From Naegleria gruberi (Eukaryota), in the NCBI GenBank assembly GCA_000004985.1, contig GG739109.1: DNA of 7,767 bases. One strand, 5' to 3'. This document shows, in pieces, positions 1 to 7,767 of this stretch (position 1 is the stretch's first letter; every line of letters begins with the position of its first letter). The position numbers were made by a program, and so were the translations under genes. The notes under the pieces are model-generated. The model was not told the DNA's origin, ran no database searches, and saw only the letters and a list, made by a program, of their open reading frames with translations.

Positions 1-616
1 GAAGTGGGAATACACGAGAAGATACAGAGCTAGAGGAAGAGGTTGTTGATTTACCTTTTTTAGCAAGAGTAGAAGCACCTCCAGAAGATCTCATTCTGGG
101 AATTCTCTTATTGGAGGTTGATTTCTTGGTTGGCTTTGAAGTTCGTTTTTTTGGAGAAGTGGAAACTGAAATTTTCATTGTTTTGGATGCTGCTTTTTGG
201 CCGCGAACTTTCTTATTGGAAACTGGTGCTGAATTCTTCTTTCCTTTTGTTTTTCTTGCAGTTTTTCCATTAGACTTGTTCTTTGTTTCTAATTGTCCAT
301 TGTTATTAGAAACTTTGGACGAATCTACTTCCTTTTCTTTCTTTTGCGAATGAATCTTATCCAATACATCTTTAAAACGATCCATCACAGACGAATCCAT
401 GCTAAATATCTTCTTCAAGTCACCCAAAGTTTTTCCTGCGAATACTTTGTGAGCTTTCGCTCTCCATCCAAAGTTATTCGAATTGATTCTTTGAATTAAA
501 GATGGATCGTTGGCTGGAGTGTTATTTGGCTTTCCTGCAAGAACTGTCATCACACAACAAAGCAATAAAAATAATGTCAAGAGATGACAAGTGGCGTTTG
601 TGTGAATTTTGCTCAT
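1..616 (-). CDS. Secreted Lys/Ser-rich protein with an N-terminal signal peptide and a cathepsin-B-type propeptide-like segment. 5' complete (ATG 616-614) and 3' partial, running off the window at position 1.
   Basis: The frame is uninterrupted for 205 codons from ATG 616-614 to position 2, and an in-frame TAA lies 3 codons upstream (625-623). Both other minus frames hit stops quickly. Translation begins MSKIHTNATCHLLTLFLLLCCVMTVLA|GKP (n-region, a 16-aa hydrophobic core, V-L-A cleavage motif). It continues ...PSLIQRINSNNFGWRAKAHKVFAGKTLGDLKKIFSMD, then a K/S-rich tail (..SPKKRTSKPTKKSTSNKR..). The three plus-strand track ORFs here (111-353, 293-499, 502-690) are antisense to it. The track missed this ORF because it has no stop inside the window. 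Confidence 0.7.
   Translation of the reverse strand, partial: MSKIHTNATCHLLTLFLLLCCVMTVLAGKPNNTPANDPSLIQRINSNNFGWRAKAHKVFAGKTLGDLKKIFSMDSSVMDRFKDVLDKIHSQKKEKEVDSSKVSNNNGQLETKNKSNGKTARKTKGKKNSAPVSNKKVRGQKAASKTMKISVSTSPKKRTSKPTKKSTSNKRIPRMRSSGGASTLAKKGKSTTSSSSSVSSRVFPL
536..616 (-). other. Predicted signal peptide (residues 1-27) of the secreted protein
   Basis: MSKIHTNATCH, then LLTLFLLLCCVMTVLA, then cleavage context VLA|GK. I judged this by eye against the n/h/c rule, not with a predictor. Confidence 0.6.
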
Positions 617-793
617 TTTTTTTTAACGATGTTCGAATAAGAGATCTGTTATTTTCAATATTTCACAAATCACTTTCCCCAAGGAGGTGACATGATTAAT
701 ATGGCAGGAGTTTTTATCATTTACAATTATTCCAATAATTTTAAAAGAATGTTATTCGAAACACTGGATTATTGTAAAGTATAGTAAAGACTA

Positions 794-843
794 TTAAAAA
801 TACAACTTGATCAATGAATATTCAGGAGTAATTCCCATTCTCA
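794..843 (-). CDS. Terminal exon of the metallophosphoesterase gene (..LRMGITPEYSLIKLYF*), with stop TAA at 796-794
   Basis: The preceding exon ends ...GGA TTT CCA T immediately followed by a perfect GTAAGT donor, the T of which would otherwise begin an in-frame TAA. Joining the 1-nt overhang T(891) to TG(843-842) gives L, then RMGITPEYSLIKLYF*. The P-x-R..PE..L..L pattern matches the C-terminal tail I recall for YaeI-family proteins, but that recollection is from memory. The acceptor (gaatag) is weak by the C. elegans TTTCAG standard. Confidence 0.6.
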
Positions 844-890
844 CTATTCGAAATTCAAATAAAACCAAATATAGACATCATATTACTTAC
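844..890 (-). other. Intron, 47 nt (GTAAGTAAT...TTCGAATAG) on the minus strand
   Basis: The donor is a perfect GTAAGT. The length equals the modal Caenorhabditis intron size. The splice is phase 1 and continues the frame into a family-consistent tail. Confidence 0.6.
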
Positions 891-1387
891 ATGGAAATCC
901 GTAATGTCCAGTTCCTCTATGACTATACACTCTTAACTTTCCTCTTCCATATAATCCCTGATCTGGTGGATAAACCTTCTCATACCTTTCCTTCTTAATC
1001 AATTTCATAATCTTGTACATTGTCTTGACAAGTGTCATTCGTTTTTTTGGCCCTATTCGAATCTGACCTCCATGATAATGTCCTGAAAAGATTATCTCAC
1101 AACTATCATCCAATGGCACGTATGAAATCATGGCTGGATTGTGAATTAGGAAAATTCTTGGAATTTCATTTGATTTTCTTGGGAAATTCTTGAATAATTT
1201 TTCAGTTTTTTCTTTTGCAATTTTTCGGTCAAAGTAAAATAAAGAGCCAACAATTTGGACTTGAAATGGTTTGTTCAATATTTTGGTCAATCTGGGGATT
1301 TCGATGAGTAATTCGTCGTTTTCTAAGAGAGGAATGTTGTTTTCAATGTAGGCTTGTTTGATTTTTTCGTGAGCTTCATAATCATGA
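891..1387 (-). CDS. Main exon of the YaeI/YkuE-type (calcineurin-like) metallophosphoesterase gene
   Basis: Translation: HDYEAHEKIKQAYIENNIPLLENDELLIEIPRLTKILNK...PRIFLIHNPAMISYVPLDDSCEIIFSGHYHGGQIRIGP...GLYGRGKLRVYSHRGTGHYGFP. It contains the hallmark LIHNP and SGHxHGGQIR motifs of this family. Track ORF 883-1290 is its 3' part: the track's 'M' at 1290 is TTG (Leu), and the frame is open upstream to the splice acceptor at 1387/1388. Confidence 0.85.
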
Positions 1388-1444
1388 CTGAGAAAGGTTT
1401 AGTTTTAAAGAGAGAGGTAAGGAAAATATTCGAAAGTTACTTAC
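1388..1444 (-). other. Intron, 57 nt (GTAAGTAAC...CCTTTCTCAG) on the minus strand
   Basis: Removing it joins ...KVVACIGN to HDYEAHE..., rebuilding motif III (GNHD) of metallophosphoesterases. The Asn codon is split AA|T across the intron (phase 2). The unspliced read-through hits a stop (TAA 1401-1399) instead. Confidence 0.85.
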
Positions 1445-1534
1445 TTTCCAATGCATGCTACTACTTTATAAGAAATATCTTTCAGTGGAGAAAGGGCTTC
1501 TTTTAAACATGTGAAATCTTCATGACAATCACGT
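1445..1534 (-). CDS. Upstream exon (partial) of the metallophosphoesterase gene; its 5' boundary is uncertain and the rest of the gene is in the N gap
   Basis: Translation: (x)RDCHEDFTCLKEALSPLKDISYKVVACIGN. The LSPL...AC-GNHD spacing fits the region between motif II and motif III in YaeI-like proteins. There is an in-frame TGA at 1572-1570, so an acceptor must lie between; the candidate is ..aaatatag|A ending at 1535. The family's GD-x-x-D motif II would then sit in a further upstream exon hidden by the gap. Confidence 0.45.
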
Positions 1535-1574
1535 CTATATTTGGTAATATTTAAATTTTTTTTTGAATTTCATT

Positions 1575-4500
1575 NNNNNNNNNNNNNNNNNNNNNNNNNN
1601 NNNNNNNNNNNNNNNNNNNNNNNNNNNNNNNNNNNNNNNNNNNNNNNNNNNNNNNNNNNNNNNNNNNNNNNNNNNNNNNNNNNNNNNNNNNNNNNNNNNN
1701 NNNNNNNNNNNNNNNNNNNNNNNNNNNNNNNNNNNNNNNNNNNNNNNNNNNNNNNNNNNNNNNNNNNNNNNNNNNNNNNNNNNNNNNNNNNNNNNNNNNN
1801 NNNNNNNNNNNNNNNNNNNNNNNNNNNNNNNNNNNNNNNNNNNNNNNNNNNNNNNNNNNNNNNNNNNNNNNNNNNNNNNNNNNNNNNNNNNNNNNNNNNN
1901 NNNNNNNNNNNNNNNNNNNNNNNNNNNNNNNNNNNNNNNNNNNNNNNNNNNNNNNNNNNNNNNNNNNNNNNNNNNNNNNNNNNNNNNNNNNNNNNNNNNN
2001 NNNNNNNNNNNNNNNNNNNNNNNNNNNNNNNNNNNNNNNNNNNNNNNNNNNNNNNNNNNNNNNNNNNNNNNNNNNNNNNNNNNNNNNNNNNNNNNNNNNN
2101 NNNNNNNNNNNNNNNNNNNNNNNNNNNNNNNNNNNNNNNNNNNNNNNNNNNNNNNNNNNNNNNNNNNNNNNNNNNNNNNNNNNNNNNNNNNNNNNNNNNN
2201 NNNNNNNNNNNNNNNNNNNNNNNNNNNNNNNNNNNNNNNNNNNNNNNNNNNNNNNNNNNNNNNNNNNNNNNNNNNNNNNNNNNNNNNNNNNNNNNNNNNN
2301 NNNNNNNNNNNNNNNNNNNNNNNNNNNNNNNNNNNNNNNNNNNNNNNNNNNNNNNNNNNNNNNNNNNNNNNNNNNNNNNNNNNNNNNNNNNNNNNNNNNN
2401 NNNNNNNNNNNNNNNNNNNNNNNNNNNNNNNNNNNNNNNNNNNNNNNNNNNNNNNNNNNNNNNNNNNNNNNNNNNNNNNNNNNNNNNNNNNNNNNNNNNN
2501 NNNNNNNNNNNNNNNNNNNNNNNNNNNNNNNNNNNNNNNNNNNNNNNNNNNNNNNNNNNNNNNNNNNNNNNNNNNNNNNNNNNNNNNNNNNNNNNNNNNN
2601 NNNNNNNNNNNNNNNNNNNNNNNNNNNNNNNNNNNNNNNNNNNNNNNNNNNNNNNNNNNNNNNNNNNNNNNNNNNNNNNNNNNNNNNNNNNNNNNNNNNN
2701 NNNNNNNNNNNNNNNNNNNNNNNNNNNNNNNNNNNNNNNNNNNNNNNNNNNNNNNNNNNNNNNNNNNNNNNNNNNNNNNNNNNNNNNNNNNNNNNNNNNN
2801 NNNNNNNNNNNNNNNNNNNNNNNNNNNNNNNNNNNNNNNNNNNNNNNNNNNNNNNNNNNNNNNNNNNNNNNNNNNNNNNNNNNNNNNNNNNNNNNNNNNN
2901 NNNNNNNNNNNNNNNNNNNNNNNNNNNNNNNNNNNNNNNNNNNNNNNNNNNNNNNNNNNNNNNNNNNNNNNNNNNNNNNNNNNNNNNNNNNNNNNNNNNN
3001 NNNNNNNNNNNNNNNNNNNNNNNNNNNNNNNNNNNNNNNNNNNNNNNNNNNNNNNNNNNNNNNNNNNNNNNNNNNNNNNNNNNNNNNNNNNNNNNNNNNN
3101 NNNNNNNNNNNNNNNNNNNNNNNNNNNNNNNNNNNNNNNNNNNNNNNNNNNNNNNNNNNNNNNNNNNNNNNNNNNNNNNNNNNNNNNNNNNNNNNNNNNN
3201 NNNNNNNNNNNNNNNNNNNNNNNNNNNNNNNNNNNNNNNNNNNNNNNNNNNNNNNNNNNNNNNNNNNNNNNNNNNNNNNNNNNNNNNNNNNNNNNNNNNN
3301 NNNNNNNNNNNNNNNNNNNNNNNNNNNNNNNNNNNNNNNNNNNNNNNNNNNNNNNNNNNNNNNNNNNNNNNNNNNNNNNNNNNNNNNNNNNNNNNNNNNN
3401 NNNNNNNNNNNNNNNNNNNNNNNNNNNNNNNNNNNNNNNNNNNNNNNNNNNNNNNNNNNNNNNNNNNNNNNNNNNNNNNNNNNNNNNNNNNNNNNNNNNN
3501 NNNNNNNNNNNNNNNNNNNNNNNNNNNNNNNNNNNNNNNNNNNNNNNNNNNNNNNNNNNNNNNNNNNNNNNNNNNNNNNNNNNNNNNNNNNNNNNNNNNN
3601 NNNNNNNNNNNNNNNNNNNNNNNNNNNNNNNNNNNNNNNNNNNNNNNNNNNNNNNNNNNNNNNNNNNNNNNNNNNNNNNNNNNNNNNNNNNNNNNNNNNN
3701 NNNNNNNNNNNNNNNNNNNNNNNNNNNNNNNNNNNNNNNNNNNNNNNNNNNNNNNNNNNNNNNNNNNNNNNNNNNNNNNNNNNNNNNNNNNNNNNNNNNN
3801 NNNNNNNNNNNNNNNNNNNNNNNNNNNNNNNNNNNNNNNNNNNNNNNNNNNNNNNNNNNNNNNNNNNNNNNNNNNNNNNNNNNNNNNNNNNNNNNNNNNN
3901 NNNNNNNNNNNNNNNNNNNNNNNNNNNNNNNNNNNNNNNNNNNNNNNNNNNNNNNNNNNNNNNNNNNNNNNNNNNNNNNNNNNNNNNNNNNNNNNNNNNN
4001 NNNNNNNNNNNNNNNNNNNNNNNNNNNNNNNNNNNNNNNNNNNNNNNNNNNNNNNNNNNNNNNNNNNNNNNNNNNNNNNNNNNNNNNNNNNNNNNNNNNN
4101 NNNNNNNNNNNNNNNNNNNNNNNNNNNNNNNNNNNNNNNNNNNNNNNNNNNNNNNNNNNNNNNNNNNNNNNNNNNNNNNNNNNNNNNNNNNNNNNNNNNN
4201 NNNNNNNNNNNNNNNNNNNNNNNNNNNNNNNNNNNNNNNNNNNNNNNNNNNNNNNNNNNNNNNNNNNNNNNNNNNNNNNNNNNNNNNNNNNNNNNNNNNN
4301 NNNNNNNNNNNNNNNNNNNNNNNNNNNNNNNNNNNNNNNNNNNNNNNNNNNNNNNNNNNNNNNNNNNNNNNNNNNNNNNNNNNNNNNNNNNNNNNNNNNN
4401 NNNNNNNNNNNNNNNNNNNNNNNNNNNNNNNNNNNNNNNNNNNNNNNNNNNNNNNNNNNNNNNNNNNNNNNNNNNNNNNNNNNNNNNNNNNNNNNNNNNN

Positions 4501-6383
4501 NNNNNNNNNNNNNNNNNNNNNNNNNNNNNNNNNNNNNNNNNNNNNNNNNNNNNNNNNNNNNNNNNNNNNNNNNNNNNNNNNNNNNNNNNNNNNNNNNNNN
4601 NNNNNNNNNNNNNNNNNNNNNNNNNNNNNNNNNNNNNNNNNNNNNNNNNNNNNNNNNNNNNNNNNNNNNNNNNNNNNNNNNNNNNNNNNNNNNNNNNNNN
4701 NNNNNNNNNNNNNNNNNNNNNNNNNNNNNNNNNNNNNNNNNNNNNNNNNNNNNNNNNNNNNNNNNNNNNNNNNNNNNNNNNNNNNNNNNNNNNNNNNNNN
4801 NNNNNNNNNNNNNNNNNNNNNNNNNNNNNNNNNNNNNNNNNNNNNNNNNNNNNNNNNNNNNNNNNNNNNNNNNNNNNNNNNNNNNNNNNNNNNNNNNNNN
4901 NNNNNNNNNNNNNNNNNNNNNNNNNNNNNNNNNNNNNNNNNNNNNNNNNNNNNNNNNNNNNNNNNNNNNNNNNNNNNNNNNNNNNNNNNNNNNNNNNNNN
5001 NNNNNNNNNNNNNNNNNNNNNNNNNNNNNNNNNNNNNNNNNNNNNNNNNNNNNNNNNNNNNNNNNNNNNNNNNNNNNNNNNNNNNNNNNNNNNNNNNNNN
5101 NNNNNNNNNNNNNNNNNNNNNNNNNNNNNNNNNNNNNNNNNNNNNNNNNNNNNNNNNNNNNNNNNNNNNNNNNNNNNNNNNNNNNNNNNNNNNNNNNNNN
5201 NNNNNNNNNNNNNNNNNNNNNNNNNNNNNNNNNNNNNNNNNNNNNNNNNNNNNNNNNNNNNNNNNNNNNNNNNNNNNNNNNNNNNNNNNNNNNNNNNNNN
5301 NNNNNNNNNNNNNNNNNNNNNNNNNNNNNNNNNNNNNNNNNNNNNNNNNNNNNNNNNNNNNNNNNNNNNNNNNNNNNNNNNNNNNNNNNNNNNNNNNNNN
5401 NNNNNNNNNNNNNNNNNNNNNNNNNNNNNNNNNNNNNNNNNNNNNNNNNNNNNNNNNNNNNNNNNNNNNNNNNNNNNNNNNNNNNNNNNNNNNNNNNNNN
5501 NNNNNNNNNNNNNNNNNNNNNNNNNNNNNNNNNNNNNNNNNNNNNNNNNNNNNNNNNNNNNNNNNNNNNNNNNNNNNNNNNNNNNNNNNNNNNNNNNNNN
5601 NNNNNNNNNNNNNNNNNNNNNNNNNNNNNNNNNNNNNNNNNNNNNNNNNNNNNNNNNNNNNNNNNNNNNNNNNNNNNNNNNNNNNNNNNNNNNNNNNNNN
5701 NNNNNNNNNNNNNNNNNNNNNNNNNNNNNNNNNNNNNNNNNNNNNNNNNNNNNNNNNNNNNNNNNNNNNNNNNNNNNNNNNNNNNNNNNNNNNNNNNNNN
5801 NNNNNNNNNNNNNNNNNNNNNNNNNNNNNNNNNNNNNNNNNNNNNNNNNNNNNNNNNNNNNNNNNNNNNNNNNNNNNNNNNNNNNNNNNNNNNNNNNNNN
5901 NNNNNNNNNNNNNNNNNNNNNNNNNNNNNNNNNNNNNNNNNNNNNNNNNNNNNNNNNNNNNNNNNNNNNNNNNNNNNNNNNNNNNNNNNNNNNNNNNNNN
6001 NNNNNNNNNNNNNNNNNNNNNNNNNNNNNNNNNNNNNNNNNNNNNNNNNNNNNNNNNNNNNNNNNNNNNNNNNNNNNNNNNNNNNNNNNNNNNNNNNNNN
6101 NNNNNNNNNNNNNNNNNNNNNNNNNNNNNNNNNNNNNNNNNNNNNNNNNNNNNNNNNNNNNNNNNNNNNNNNNNNNNNNNNNNNNNNNNNNNNNNNNNNN
6201 NNNNNNNNNNNNNNNNNNNNNNNNNNNNNNNNNNNNNNNNNNNNNNNNNNNNNNNNNNNNNNNNNNNNNNNNNNNNNNNNNNNNNNNNNNNNNNNNNNNN
6301 NNNNNNNNNNNNNNNNNNNNNNNNNNNNNNNNNNNNNNNNNNNNNNNNNNNNNNNNNNNNNNNNNNNNNNNNNNNNNNNNNNN
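1575..6383. other. Scaffold gap (4809 N)
   Basis: Directly visible. The non-round length suggests a size-estimated gap from paired reads. The three kb-long track ORFs through this region (1535-6442 minus, 1541-6472 plus, 1563-6515 plus) are artefacts of N being translated as X. Confidence 0.99.
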
Positions 6384-6620
6384 ACCATATTTATTATCAG
6401 TTTTTCATTATTNTATGTTTTGGCTTGGAGAGAGATTTCCAAACCTTTTTTGATTCACTCCTTCAAGAGTGATTCAAAAATTATCAAACTCATTGTGAAC
6501 ATATTTCAAAGATAACCAACTTTTTCAACATCTACAAGATAGGGATCACACTCATATCAATTTTTTTGGTATGGTTCGAGCCTCAGTTTCTTTAATAAAT
6601 ACAAGACGTAGAATTCTGGA

Positions 6621-6818
6621 ATGTTTCTAGTTGATGTACACAAATCATTGCAATATCCATGGAAAGAAACACTGGAAATGAGTATAAGAGATTCTGGAGT
6701 TACACAATTGGCTGATCAGGATGTGCTCAATACTCTCGATAGAAAAACGAATGGAACATGGTTTCATGAAATGTTATTGGAAGATTGTCATAATTATGTG
6801 GGGGTGGGTGGGTCGTGA
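6621..6818 (+). CDS. Hypothetical 65-codon ORF (MFLVDVHKSLQYPWKETLEM...), coding status unresolved
   Basis: The composition looks protein-like, but codon usage is poor (CTA, GTA, ATA, ACG, TTA). No convincing donor site lies inside it. Its last 10 codons are encoded by the repeat and inverted-repeat sequence. The opposite strand is not coding here. Confidence 0.2.
   Translation: MFLVDVHKSLQYPWKETLEMSIRDSGVTQLADQDVLNTLDRKTNGTWFHEMLLEDCHNYVGVGGS
6778..6796 (+). repeat. Left arm of a perfect 19-bp inverted repeat (TGGAAGATTGTCATAATTA)
   Basis: This is the exact reverse complement of 7282-7300. Both flanking bases on each side mismatch, so the arms are exactly 19 nt. Confidence 0.85.
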
Positions 6819-6864
6819 AAAAAGGATGTCCATAATTACGTGGTCCAGAGTGGGTCAGAAAGTA
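6781..6864 (+). repeat. Two ~42-nt tandem direct repeat units (6781-6822 and 6823-6864), each with a GTC(C)ATAATTA(Y)GTGG...GTGGGTC core
   Basis: Hand alignment of aagattgtcataattatgtgggggtgggtgggtcgtgaaaaa against aggatgtccataattacgtggtccagagtgggtcagaaagta gives about 70% identity. The first unit overlaps the left inverted-repeat arm. A second repeat pair, 'aaagtagagc', sits at 6859-6868 and 6891-6900. Confidence 0.55.
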
Positions 6865-7208
6865 GAGCAGAGCAAAAACAAAAATTGGCAAAAGTAGAGC
6901 CGAAGGTTTATTAGCCAAGAGTGAGACAGCGTTCAAAGTATCAATTATCACTTGTTCTGCTAGCAACAAGTACTTCTGGGTTCTTGATTGTTTGTGTACC
7001 AACAACTTTGGGTAGGCATTCATCTAGATTGTTATGGTTGAATGTGCTATGGCTGATGTGGAAGGAAGCAAAGGGAGAACTCTCCTCCTGGTGGTACTGA
7101 TGAAGGTTGGTAGTTAGCAGGGTGGTGATGAAATCATGAGTAATTGTTGTTTGTTGTTTTTTTTTGTTGAATTTATAACGGTCAGAACATTCAACTTTCA
7201 GCGGTAAC

Positions 7209-7358
7209 ATGTTTGCTGGTAGTGTGAAAAAACTCACATGCAGTGGCCAGGATTTGTTGGGACGATCTTACAGTGGGGTTGTAATTATGACAATCTTCCA
7301 TTCACAACAATCCAGACACTTTCAAATCCAAATTGTGGAAATACCATCTTTCCACGAC
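7209..7358 (+). CDS. Candidate plus-strand first exon (50 codons) placed directly behind a TTTCAG acceptor. This is an alternative model to the minus-strand ORF at the window end.
   Basis: TTTCAG at 7196-7201 sits 7 nt before ATG 7209, a spacing typical of trans-spliced nematode gene starts. The exon ends GAC|GTGAGC at 7358/7359 in phase 0. A frame-compatible acceptor ..cttatacag|ATA lies at 7615/7616 and opens a frame to the window end. Against it: the exon runs through the right inverted-repeat arm, and codon usage is mediocre (ACG, GGC, GTA). Confidence 0.2.
7282..7300 (-). repeat. Right arm of the 19-bp inverted repeat
   Basis: Plus strand reads TAATTATGACAATCTTCCA, the reverse complement of 6778-6796. 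The spacer is 485 nt and the total span 523 nt. Confidence 0.85.
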
Positions 7359-7621
7359 GTGAGCACTTATTTGATTGGATTGAAAATCCTAACTATACTC
7401 TTACATGTTCTTGAACTCGTATTTAACAATCTTGTGCAAGAACAAAAAAAATAATTTAGCAATTATCTATCAACATTATCCTTTTCTGTGCAATGCACTA
7501 ATTCTTCATTCAACACCTCTGTTGTGAAATATTCACTAAAATCAAAAGTTATACTCTTTCTGTCTCAAAATTAAGAATGACATGAAATAATTTGATTCTG
7601 TTTAAACTTATACAGATACTC

Positions 7622-7767
7622 TCAAGCACATACCAGACCATCAAAACCATGAACCAAGAAGGTATCTGCATCCAAAAACAAGAAATGTGCCAATTTATGT
7701 TGAAAGTATTCAATCAACTTCTTGTTGGCAGAACGAGCCACTATAATNGTGTAGATTTGACATGGAT
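7622..7767 (-). CDS. 5'-partial minus-strand ORF with a glycosyltransferase GT-A-like DxD context (..KLIEYFQHKLAHFLFLDADTFLVHGFDGLVCA*). It may be a terminal exon or a gene fragment.
   Basis: The frame is open from the window edge down to TGA at 7624-7622. Codon choice (TAC, AAC, AAG, ATC, TTC, CGT) is more Caenorhabditis-like than the overlapping plus frame. hhhh-DADT-hh is the classic DxD nucleotide-sugar-binding context. A CTG|GTATGT donor at 7634/7633 exists, but no downstream acceptor yields an extended frame. A stop so soon after DxD is atypical for an intact enzyme. Confidence 0.35.
   Translation of the reverse strand, partial: PCQIYXIIVARSANKKLIEYFQHKLAHFLFLDADTFLVHGFDGLVCA

What the first reader, a model, noticed from the sequence alone, without database searches (positions are those of the whole stretch)
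794..1574. Bacterial-type (YaeI/YkuE-like) metallophosphoesterase gene with two short introns
Splicing out two short introns (57 nt and 47 nt) yields a protein carrying the diagnostic metallophosphoesterase motifs. The first splice recreates GNHD from ..ACIGN + HDY.., and LIHNP and SGHYHGGQIRI are also present. A family-typical ..LSPL..AC-GNHD spacer is present too. The tail after the second splice (..GFP|LRMGITPEYSLIKLYF*) agrees with the YaeI C-terminus as I remember it, which is from memory rather than a database hit. This gives an independent, sequence-only confirmation of both splice sites. The family is mainly prokaryotic and has eukaryotic relatives (TMPPE-like). The exons holding motifs I and II fall in the gap, so the gene model is necessarily partial.
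Basis: partly seen in the sequence, partly recalled or inferred. Interest (0 to 1): 0.5.

Follow-up and report, generated by a model that had tools for sequence, protein, structure and literature searches.

The report
Naegleria membrane metallophosphoesterase gene, mis-annotated

Summary
On the minus strand, 1534..794 holds three exons of a calcineurin-like metallophosphoesterase gene. They are separated by a 57-nt intron (1444..1388) and a 47-nt intron (890..844), both with GTAAGT...AG boundaries. The window is a 7767-bp Naegleria gruberi scaffold. A profile built from 65 homologues, without the window, picks out exactly these three pieces in a six-frame scan. Each exon adds score (156, then 201, then 225 bits). 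Intron 1 is at the same codon and phase in N. fowleri, two N. lovaniensis paralogues and a metagenomic Naegleria contig. Intron 2 is shared with that contig.

There are two corrections. First, exon A starts at 1534, not 1574. There is an in-frame TGA at 1572..1570, and a third intron's acceptor lies at 1536/1535. Second, the deposited model (EFC35617.1) skips the true last exon through a 347-nt intron and fuses the gene to the next one.

Full-length orthologues are about 465 aa: five TM helices followed by the phosphoesterase domain. YaeI is the nearest curated model, but its cutoff is not met (52-72 bits against 188). Outside protists, the nearest relatives are Myxococcota-type bacterial proteins. 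The substrate is unknown. This is an ordinary gene and a useful re-annotation, of low novelty.

The parts
1535..1574 (-). 3' end of a third, upstream intron that runs into the assembly gap. It is A/T-rich, ends in ...CCAAATATAG, and contains the in-frame TGA at 1572..1570.
   Evidence: Searches show the stop codon and the AG at 1536/1535. The homologous intron in L004 (2746..2789) is at the same codon and the same phase 2 (AC|A). The profile alignment of this peptide begins at about 1530.
1445..1534 (-). Exon A (90 nt), encoding (T)RDCHEDFTCLKEALSPLKDISYKVVACIG(N). It holds the spacer between motifs II and III and the first part of motif III (GN).
   Evidence: +44.5 bits when added, and E 4e-7 on its own. 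The orthologous L004 exon 2790..2879 has the same 90-nt length.
1388..1444 (-). Intron 1, 57 nt, GTAAGT...CAG, phase 2, splitting the Asn codon of GNHD.
   Evidence: The same codon and phase are found in N. lovaniensis P0003 and P0004, N. fowleri P0013 and L004. P0165 reads through as ...ACLGK.
891..1387 (-). Exon B (497 nt). It holds the HD of motif III, motif IV (LIHNP), motif V (SGHYHGGQ), PDQGLYG and HRGTGHYGFP.
   Evidence: 157 bits alone. It is identical to the first 166 residues of deposited EFC35617.1.
844..890 (-). Intron 2, 47 nt, GTAAGT...TAG, phase 1.
   Evidence: L004 has an intron at the same codon and phase (3425..3478, 54 nt). The metagenome ORFs P0005 (...GFPCK) and P0002 (...GFPRKF) end by reading into a GTAAG at this point.
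794..843 (-). Exon C (50 nt): (L)RMGITPEYSLIKLYF plus the TAA stop. This is the conserved C-terminus of the family.
   Evidence: All full-length homologues end ...GFPLR(M/L)GI.SE.SLI.LYF. It adds +24 bits. The YaeI profile aligns to its position 270 of 271.
1..616 (-). A separate downstream gene, not part of the phosphoesterase. It has an ATG at 616..614, a hydrophobic signal-peptide-like start, a weak cathepsin-B-type propeptide motif, and then a K/S-rich tail that runs off the scaffold.
   Evidence: The deposited model joins 891 to 543 and so fuses this ORF to the phosphoesterase.

Best explanation
Window 1534..794 (minus strand) encodes the C-terminal 211 residues of a Naegleria gruberi nuclear gene. 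The product is a five-transmembrane-helix, membrane-anchored binuclear metallophosphoesterase of about 465 aa. The gene has at least three short spliceosomal introns here. Two are complete (57 and 47 nt), and only the acceptor end of the third is visible before the gap. The 5' exons lie in the assembly gap; by analogy with L004 they should occupy about 850 nt. They encode the TM bundle, motif I (DxH) and motif II (GD). The visible part carries the other three metal-binding and catalytic motifs intact: GNHD, the His of LIHNP, and GHYH. The inferred mechanism follows from what is established for the calcineurin-like phosphoesterase superfamily. Two divalent metal ions held by these motifs activate a water or hydroxide that attacks a phosphoester or pyrophosphate bond. 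The membrane anchor suggests a membrane-proximal, possibly lipid-linked, substrate, as for LpxG. By the positive-inside rule, the K/R-rich loops 1-2 and 3-4 put the catalytic domain on the cytosolic face; this is a weak inference. The substrate is unknown. The public gene model for this locus is wrong at its 3' end.
Against: No transcript data were available, so the junctions rest on comparative evidence only. Motifs I and II and the TM region cannot be seen in this window; they are inferred from orthologues that are 58-64% identical. No enzymatic activity has been shown for any member of this clade. The closest solved structures are only 12-18% identical, so nothing indicates a substrate. The Pfam score of the truncated product is only just above threshold (22.5 against 21.5).
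Confidence: 0.9

Rival explanations
1. The deposited model EFC35617.1 is correct. After ...GHYGFP the transcript splices across 347 nt (890..544) into the downstream ORF, producing a fusion protein that lacks the LRMGI...LYF tail.
For: The model is reproduced exactly, 328 of 328 residues, with a canonical GT...AG intron and an open frame. It uses the same donor at 891|890.
Against: The fusion removes 16 residues that are conserved to the very C-terminus in all homologues, including invariant Arg, Glu and Ser. It adds nothing to the family score (156.1 bits against 156.4 for exon B alone, and 225 for the three-exon model). Its acceptor lies inside the hydrophobic signal-peptide-like start of an ORF that has its own ATG 177 nt after the phosphoesterase stop codon. 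The closest relative, L004, uses the short intron. No relative carries the appended sequence. A 347-nt intron is far longer than the 43-57 nt introns in this gene and in L004.
Confidence: 0.05
2. The sequence is bacterial contamination, or a very recent bacterial insertion with no introns, and the 'introns' are chance frame interruptions.
For: The best curated model hits are bacterial (YaeI, LpxG), and many close relatives are bacterial.
Against: Both interruptions have GTAAGT...AG boundaries and exactly restore conserved motifs. Intron positions are shared with other Naegleria genomes. GC content is 33-34%, like the flanks. The window groups with Heterolobosea at 100/100 bootstrap. The bacterial relatives are only 35-40% identical.
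Confidence: 0.01
3. The locus is a decaying pseudogene copy. It sits on a small, gap-ridden scaffold and is a divergent paralogue.
For: It is only 58-64% identical to its nearest relatives and has the longest branch in its subclade. The scaffold is 62% gap. No other N. gruberi copy appeared in the searches.
Against: There are no frameshifts or internal stops in the three exons. All invariant family residues are retained. Splice sites are intact, and the terminal exon and its stop codon are conserved in position. Because no second N. gruberi copy was found, this is more likely the functional gene.
Confidence: 0.05

Closest known systems
Naegleria fowleri FDP41_002680 (XP_044562878.1; UniRef 'Calcineurin-like phosphoesterase domain-containing protein'), with the N. 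lovaniensis and Willaertia magna homologues
   Same: Same clade (bootstrap 100/100) and 58% identity over the 208 aligned positions. The C-terminus is the same, the motifs are the same, and the intron at ...ACxG|N is shared. The full-length architecture is 5 TM helices plus the phosphoesterase domain.
   Different: The N. gruberi gene has an extra intron at GFP|L and one after GDME-T, and it lacks the GHL|H intron. None of these proteins has a known function.
E. coli YaeI phosphodiesterase (NCBIfam NF008460) and B. subtilis YkuE-type C-terminal metallophosphatase domain (COG1408, 'predicted MPP superfamily phosphohydrolase')
   Same: YaeI is the best-scoring curated model and aligns end to end over the catalytic domain, including the C-terminal ...P.R.G..PE..L..L tail. 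The five motifs are the same. JGI gives the COG1408 name to the nearest metagenome relatives.
   Different: The scores are 52 bits (window) and 72 bits (full-length orthologue) against a cutoff of 188, so it is not an equivalog. The Naegleria protein also has a five-helix membrane domain that the 271-position YaeI profile does not cover.
Myxococcota-type bacterial TM-metallophosphoesterases (e.g. Nannocystis exedens P0136, Polyangiaceae P0087)
   Same: The full architecture is shared, TM region plus catalytic domain, with 80-96% coverage. Identity is 30-34% overall and 37-40% in the catalytic domain. This is the sister group of the protist clade in the NJ tree.
   Different: They have no introns, are about 390-405 aa long, and lack the heterolobosean insert around ...RWSKL.... 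None is characterised.
Chlamydia LpxG (UDP-2,3-diacylglucosamine diphosphatase)
   Same: It is a membrane-associated, Mn-dependent calcineurin-like phosphoesterase with the DXH...GD...GNHD...GHXH motifs (PMC4807358). It is the second-best curated model.
   Different: The scores are 41-49 bits against a cutoff of 350. LpxG has one TM helix, not five. To my knowledge Naegleria has no lipid A pathway, so the substrate must differ.
Animal TMPPE (transmembrane protein with metallophosphoesterase domain; C. elegans F40B5.2)
   Same: The described architecture is the same, five TM helices plus a metallophosphoesterase domain, and the function is also unknown (PMC8327215; PMC6934317).
   Different: No TMPPE-named protein appeared among the listed hits of either profile search. 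The AlphaFold-database libraries were unavailable, so homology beyond the shared superfamily and architecture was not tested.

Membership tests
Calcineurin-like metallophosphoesterase superfamily (Pfam PF00149) | Score at or above the Pfam gathering threshold | tested here: met
   The window's spliced product scores 22.5 bits against a cutoff of 21.5. The full-length orthologues score 40 and 46.6 bits.
Calcineurin-like metallophosphoesterase superfamily (Pfam PF00149) | Motifs III (GNHD/E), IV (His) and V (GHxH) | tested here: met
   GNHD (recreated by splice 1), LIHNP and SGHYHGGQ are present. All are invariant columns of the family alignments. The motif definition is from PMC4807358.
Calcineurin-like metallophosphoesterase superfamily (Pfam PF00149) | Motifs I (DxH) and II (GDxxD) | not testable with these tools
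   They lie in the assembly gap 1575..6383. They are present in the orthologues L004, L005 and P0013 (TDVHLG, ITGDME).
Calcineurin-like metallophosphoesterase superfamily (Pfam PF00149) | Alpha/beta sandwich fold | tested here: met
YaeI phosphodiesterase (NCBIfam NF008460, equivalog) | Score at or above the curated cutoff of 188 bits | tested here: not met
   52.1 bits for the window product and 72.3 bits for the full-length orthologue P0013.
LpxG (NCBIfam NF033458, equivalog) | Score at or above the curated cutoff of 350 bits | tested here: not met
   41.5 bits and 48.6 bits for P0013.
TMPPE-type architecture (5 TM helices plus a C-terminal metallophosphoesterase domain) | N-terminal five-helix membrane domain | tested here: inconclusive
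   It is not visible in the window because of the gap. It is present in all orthologues: L004 and L005, P0013 with model helices 4-37, 41-65, 70-92, 99-135 and 140-169, and the unannotated upstream DNA of L001-L003.
TMPPE-type architecture (5 TM helices plus a C-terminal metallophosphoesterase domain) | Sequence or fold orthology to animal TMPPE | not testable with these tools
   No TMPPE sequence was available. The afdb libraries are offline. No TMPPE-named hit is listed.
Spliceosomal introns of Heterolobosea | GT...AG boundaries, short length, and positions conserved in orthologues | tested here: met
   The boundaries are GTAAGT...CAG and GTAAGT...TAG, at 57 and 47 nt. Positions are conserved. 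Acrasis introns are reported at 9-95 bp (PMC11589745).
Spliceosomal introns of Heterolobosea | Transcript evidence for the junctions | not testable with these tools
   No RNA-seq or EST resource is available here.

The most novel reading that the evidence does not exclude
The heterolobosean and protist 5TM-metallophosphoesterase clade arose by one ancient transfer of a complete TM-plus-catalytic gene between a Myxococcota-like bacterium and a protist ancestor. It then duplicated and gained introns lineage by lineage. The ACxG|N intron is shared by all Naegleria paralogues examined. The GFP|L and GDME-T introns occur only in the N. gruberi lineage, and the GHL|H intron only in the N. fowleri, L005 and N. 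lovaniensis P0003 genes. If so, the family would be a small natural record of intron gain after horizontal transfer.
Probability: 0.35. Interest if true: 0.3.

Novelty: already known. Interest (0 to 1): 0.15.

Why it matters
The main value is as an annotation correction. The public N. gruberi model EFC35617.1/XP_002668361.1 fuses two genes and drops the conserved last exon. The deposited N. lovaniensis and Willaertia models lack, or split off, the five-helix membrane domain. Anyone using these records for orthology, HGT screens or domain counts in Naegleria would be misled. Biologically, the family is an uncharacterised membrane metallophosphoesterase shared by amoeboflagellates, including the pathogen N. 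fowleri, and by Myxococcota-type bacteria. It is a modest candidate for functional study. The existence of the gene is not surprising.

Full report
WHAT THE WINDOW IS. The 7767-base window consists of a 1574-base left arm, a 4809-base run of N (1575..6383) and a 1384-base right arm. The best protein hit of the spliced product is 'predicted protein, partial [Naegleria gruberi]' (EFC35617.1 / XP_002668361.1). Its only contig is 7767 bases long, so the window is that N. gruberi scaffold.

CHECK OF THE OBSERVATION. Intron 1444..1388 is 57 nt (GTAAGT...CTCAG) and intron 890..844 is 47 nt (GTAAGT...AATAG). Removing them joins ...VVACIG|NHDYE... and ...GHYGFP|LRMGITPEYSLIKLYF*, with the stop at 796..794. 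The product passes the Pfam Metallophos threshold (22.5 bits against 21.5). It aligns to the NCBIfam YaeI model through both junctions to the end of the profile (query 14-221 to profile 94-270 of 271, E 6e-14).

I then scanned all 198 stop-to-stop peptides of the six frames. The top three hits are three collinear minus-strand pieces: 1569..1444 (profile 207-234), 1398..886 (profile 236-376) and 877..797 (profile 376-391). Nothing else in the window scores. Exon B alone scores 156 bits. Adding exon A gives 201 bits, and adding exon C gives 225 bits.

COMPARATIVE SUPPORT FOR THE SPLICE SITES. All homologues read ...VVAC(L/I)GNHDYE... across junction 1. All full-length homologues end ...GTGHYGFPLR(M/L)GI.SE.SLI.LYF exactly where the window's third exon ends.

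I mapped the exon structure of the deposited orthologues. The intron that splits the Asn codon of GNHD (phase 2) is at the identical position in N. lovaniensis P0003 and P0004 and in N. fowleri P0013. It is also there in a metagenomic Naegleria-like contig, L004. It therefore predates the split of the paralogues.

The intron after GFP (phase 1) is shared with L004, where it is 54 nt (GTAAGT...CAG). It also explains why the prokaryote-style ORF calls P0005 and P0002 end in ...GFPCK and ...GFPRKF: they read into a GTAAG. This intron is absent from N. fowleri, N. lovaniensis, Willaertia and L005, so it is specific to the N. gruberi lineage.

CORRECTION OF THE 5' BOUNDARY. However, the frame carries a TGA at 1572..1570. 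The residues encoded upstream of ...RDCHED (NSKKNLNITKY) also fail to align with the homologues' DLVxITGDME motif. An acceptor...CCAAATATAG|A, lies at 1536/1535. In L004 an intron sits at exactly this codon and phase (GDME-AC|A-FDC), and the following exon is 90 nt, the same length as 1534..1445. The profile alignment of this peptide also starts at about 1530. So 1574..1535 is the tail of a third intron, and the visible coding part is 1534..794.

THE PUBLIC GENE MODEL IS A FUSION. EFC35617.1 is reproduced residue for residue (328/328) by joining 1387..891 to 543 and downstream, through a 347-nt intron. That intron removes several things: the conserved last exon, its stop codon, a 177-nt spacer, and the ATG (616..614) and most of the hydrophobic signal-peptide-like start of the next ORF. 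The added sequence gives no gain against the family profile (156.1 bits).

The same TM region (...LKPKWYL...CLPGxWYLGW...) is encoded just upstream of the annotated N. lovaniensis and Willaertia genes. There it was left out or called as a separate gene. In the window this part and motifs I and II must lie in the gap. The right arm holds no exon of the family.

HOW IT PROBABLY WORKS. The family membership and the intact motifs III-V are shown. Every column that is invariant in the family alignment is conserved in the window product. The rest is inferred from the superfamily's established chemistry (motifs and metal dependence as summarised for LpxG in PMC4807358). Two metal ions bound by the five motifs activate water to hydrolyse a phosphoester or pyrophosphate bond.

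The membrane anchor suggests a membrane-proximal substrate. The K/R-rich loops between helices 1-2 and 3-4 suggest that the catalytic domain faces the cytosol, which is a weak inference from the positive-inside rule. No substrate can be named. Animal TMPPE, the protein with the same described architecture, is also uncharacterised (PMC8327215).

RELATION TO KNOWN FAMILIES. YaeI is the best curated model and LpxG the second. The cutoffs are missed by a wide margin even with full-length orthologues: 72 bits against 188 for YaeI, and 49 against 350 for LpxG. The bacterial sister proteins miss them as well. So the protein is YaeI-like but is not a YaeI or an LpxG.

Profile searches show three tiers of relatives. 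First come the Heterolobosea. Next come unnamed metagenome proteins whose contigs carry eukaryotic neighbours such as CCT, Ras, F-box/UBX, WD40 and TMEM230. Then come hundreds of bacterial proteins of about 395 aa, named where known as Polyangiaceae, Nannocystis or 'Deltaproteobacteria'. These share the TM region too.

In an NJ tree, Heterolobosea are monophyletic (100/100). The wider protist group has 92-98% support, and its sister is the Myxococcota-type group. A EukProt transcript falls outside both. This fits 'bacterial-type' and is compatible with an old horizontal transfer followed by intron gain. That pattern is documented for other genes in the heterolobosean Acrasis (PMC11589745). However, the tree is crude, and animal TMPPE could not be included because the AlphaFold-database libraries were offline.

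RIVALS. Bacterial contamination is excluded by the introns, by the composition (34% GC in the exon against 33% in the arm) and by orthologues on 0.7-Mb eukaryotic contigs. A pseudogene is unlikely, because the frames, splice sites and invariant residues are all intact. It cannot be fully excluded while the 5' half is unsequenced. The deposited fusion model is discussed above.

VERDICT. It needs one boundary correction and one caveat on family membership. The gene is ordinary: a member of a known superfamily, already deposited (although mis-modelled) and annotated in sister species. Interest is low. The practical result is a corrected gene model, together with the observation that several public Naegleria and Willaertia models of this family are truncated or fused.

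Noticed in passing
window 1..616 (minus strand): An independent downstream ORF with an ATG at 616..614. It starts with a hydrophobic signal-peptide-like segment (MSKIHTNATCHLLTLFLLLCCVMTVLAG) and has a weak match to the cathepsin-B-type propeptide (Pfam Propeptide_C1, 16.9 bits, cutoff 32.7, E 0.006). A long K/S/T-rich low-complexity tail follows and runs off the scaffold. No homologue lies next to the orthologues in other species.
   Followed up: partly
window 544..890 (minus strand): The deposited N. gruberi model EFC35617.1 / XP_002668361.1 treats this 347-nt stretch as an intron. It thereby fuses the phosphoesterase to the downstream ORF and skips the conserved last exon 843..794.
   Followed up: yes
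L001 3237..4000, L002 about 3500..4000, L003 about 3500..4000: The deposited N. lovaniensis (C9374_002927, C9374_002182) and Willaertia magna (ABK040_007543) models start after the TM domain. The conserved five-helix region is encoded just upstream. In L001 it is called as a separate 203-aa gene, so these public models appear to be N-terminally truncated or split.
   Followed up: partly
L001 4597..4745: The N. lovaniensis P0003 model removes 149 nt after ...FSGHL and so lacks HGGQI... (the second half of motif V) and about 17 further residues that all relatives have. N. fowleri and L005 have an ordinary intron at exactly GHL|H. The 149-nt 'intron' therefore probably includes coding sequence, meaning either a mis-set acceptor or a degenerate copy.
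   Followed up: no
cluster of P0013: A 547-aa N. lovaniensis protein (C9374_002996), named 'Chromatin accessibility complex protein 1' in UniRef, sits in the same 90%-identity cluster as the N. fowleri phosphoesterase. This suggests a third N. lovaniensis copy whose model may be fused to a neighbouring gene.
   Followed up: no
L004, L005, L010 compared with the window: Intron positions in this family differ strongly between close relatives. ACxG|N is shared widely. GHL|H occurs in N. fowleri, L005 and N. lovaniensis P0003. GFP|L and GDME-T occur only in the window and L004. QLT|D occurs only in L004, SKQ|R only in L005, and CLPGF|W in N. fowleri. This indicates rapid intron gain and loss.
   Followed up: partly
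window 6384..7767: The right arm has only short ORFs (108 aa or less) with no Pfam match and no exon of the phosphoesterase family. Peptides resembling glycosyltransferase DxD and DQD motifs (FLFLDADTF on the minus strand at 7765..7625, LADQDVLN on the plus strand at 6612..6815) were seen by eye but are not supported by any search. Single N bases occur at 6413 and 7748.
   Followed up: partly
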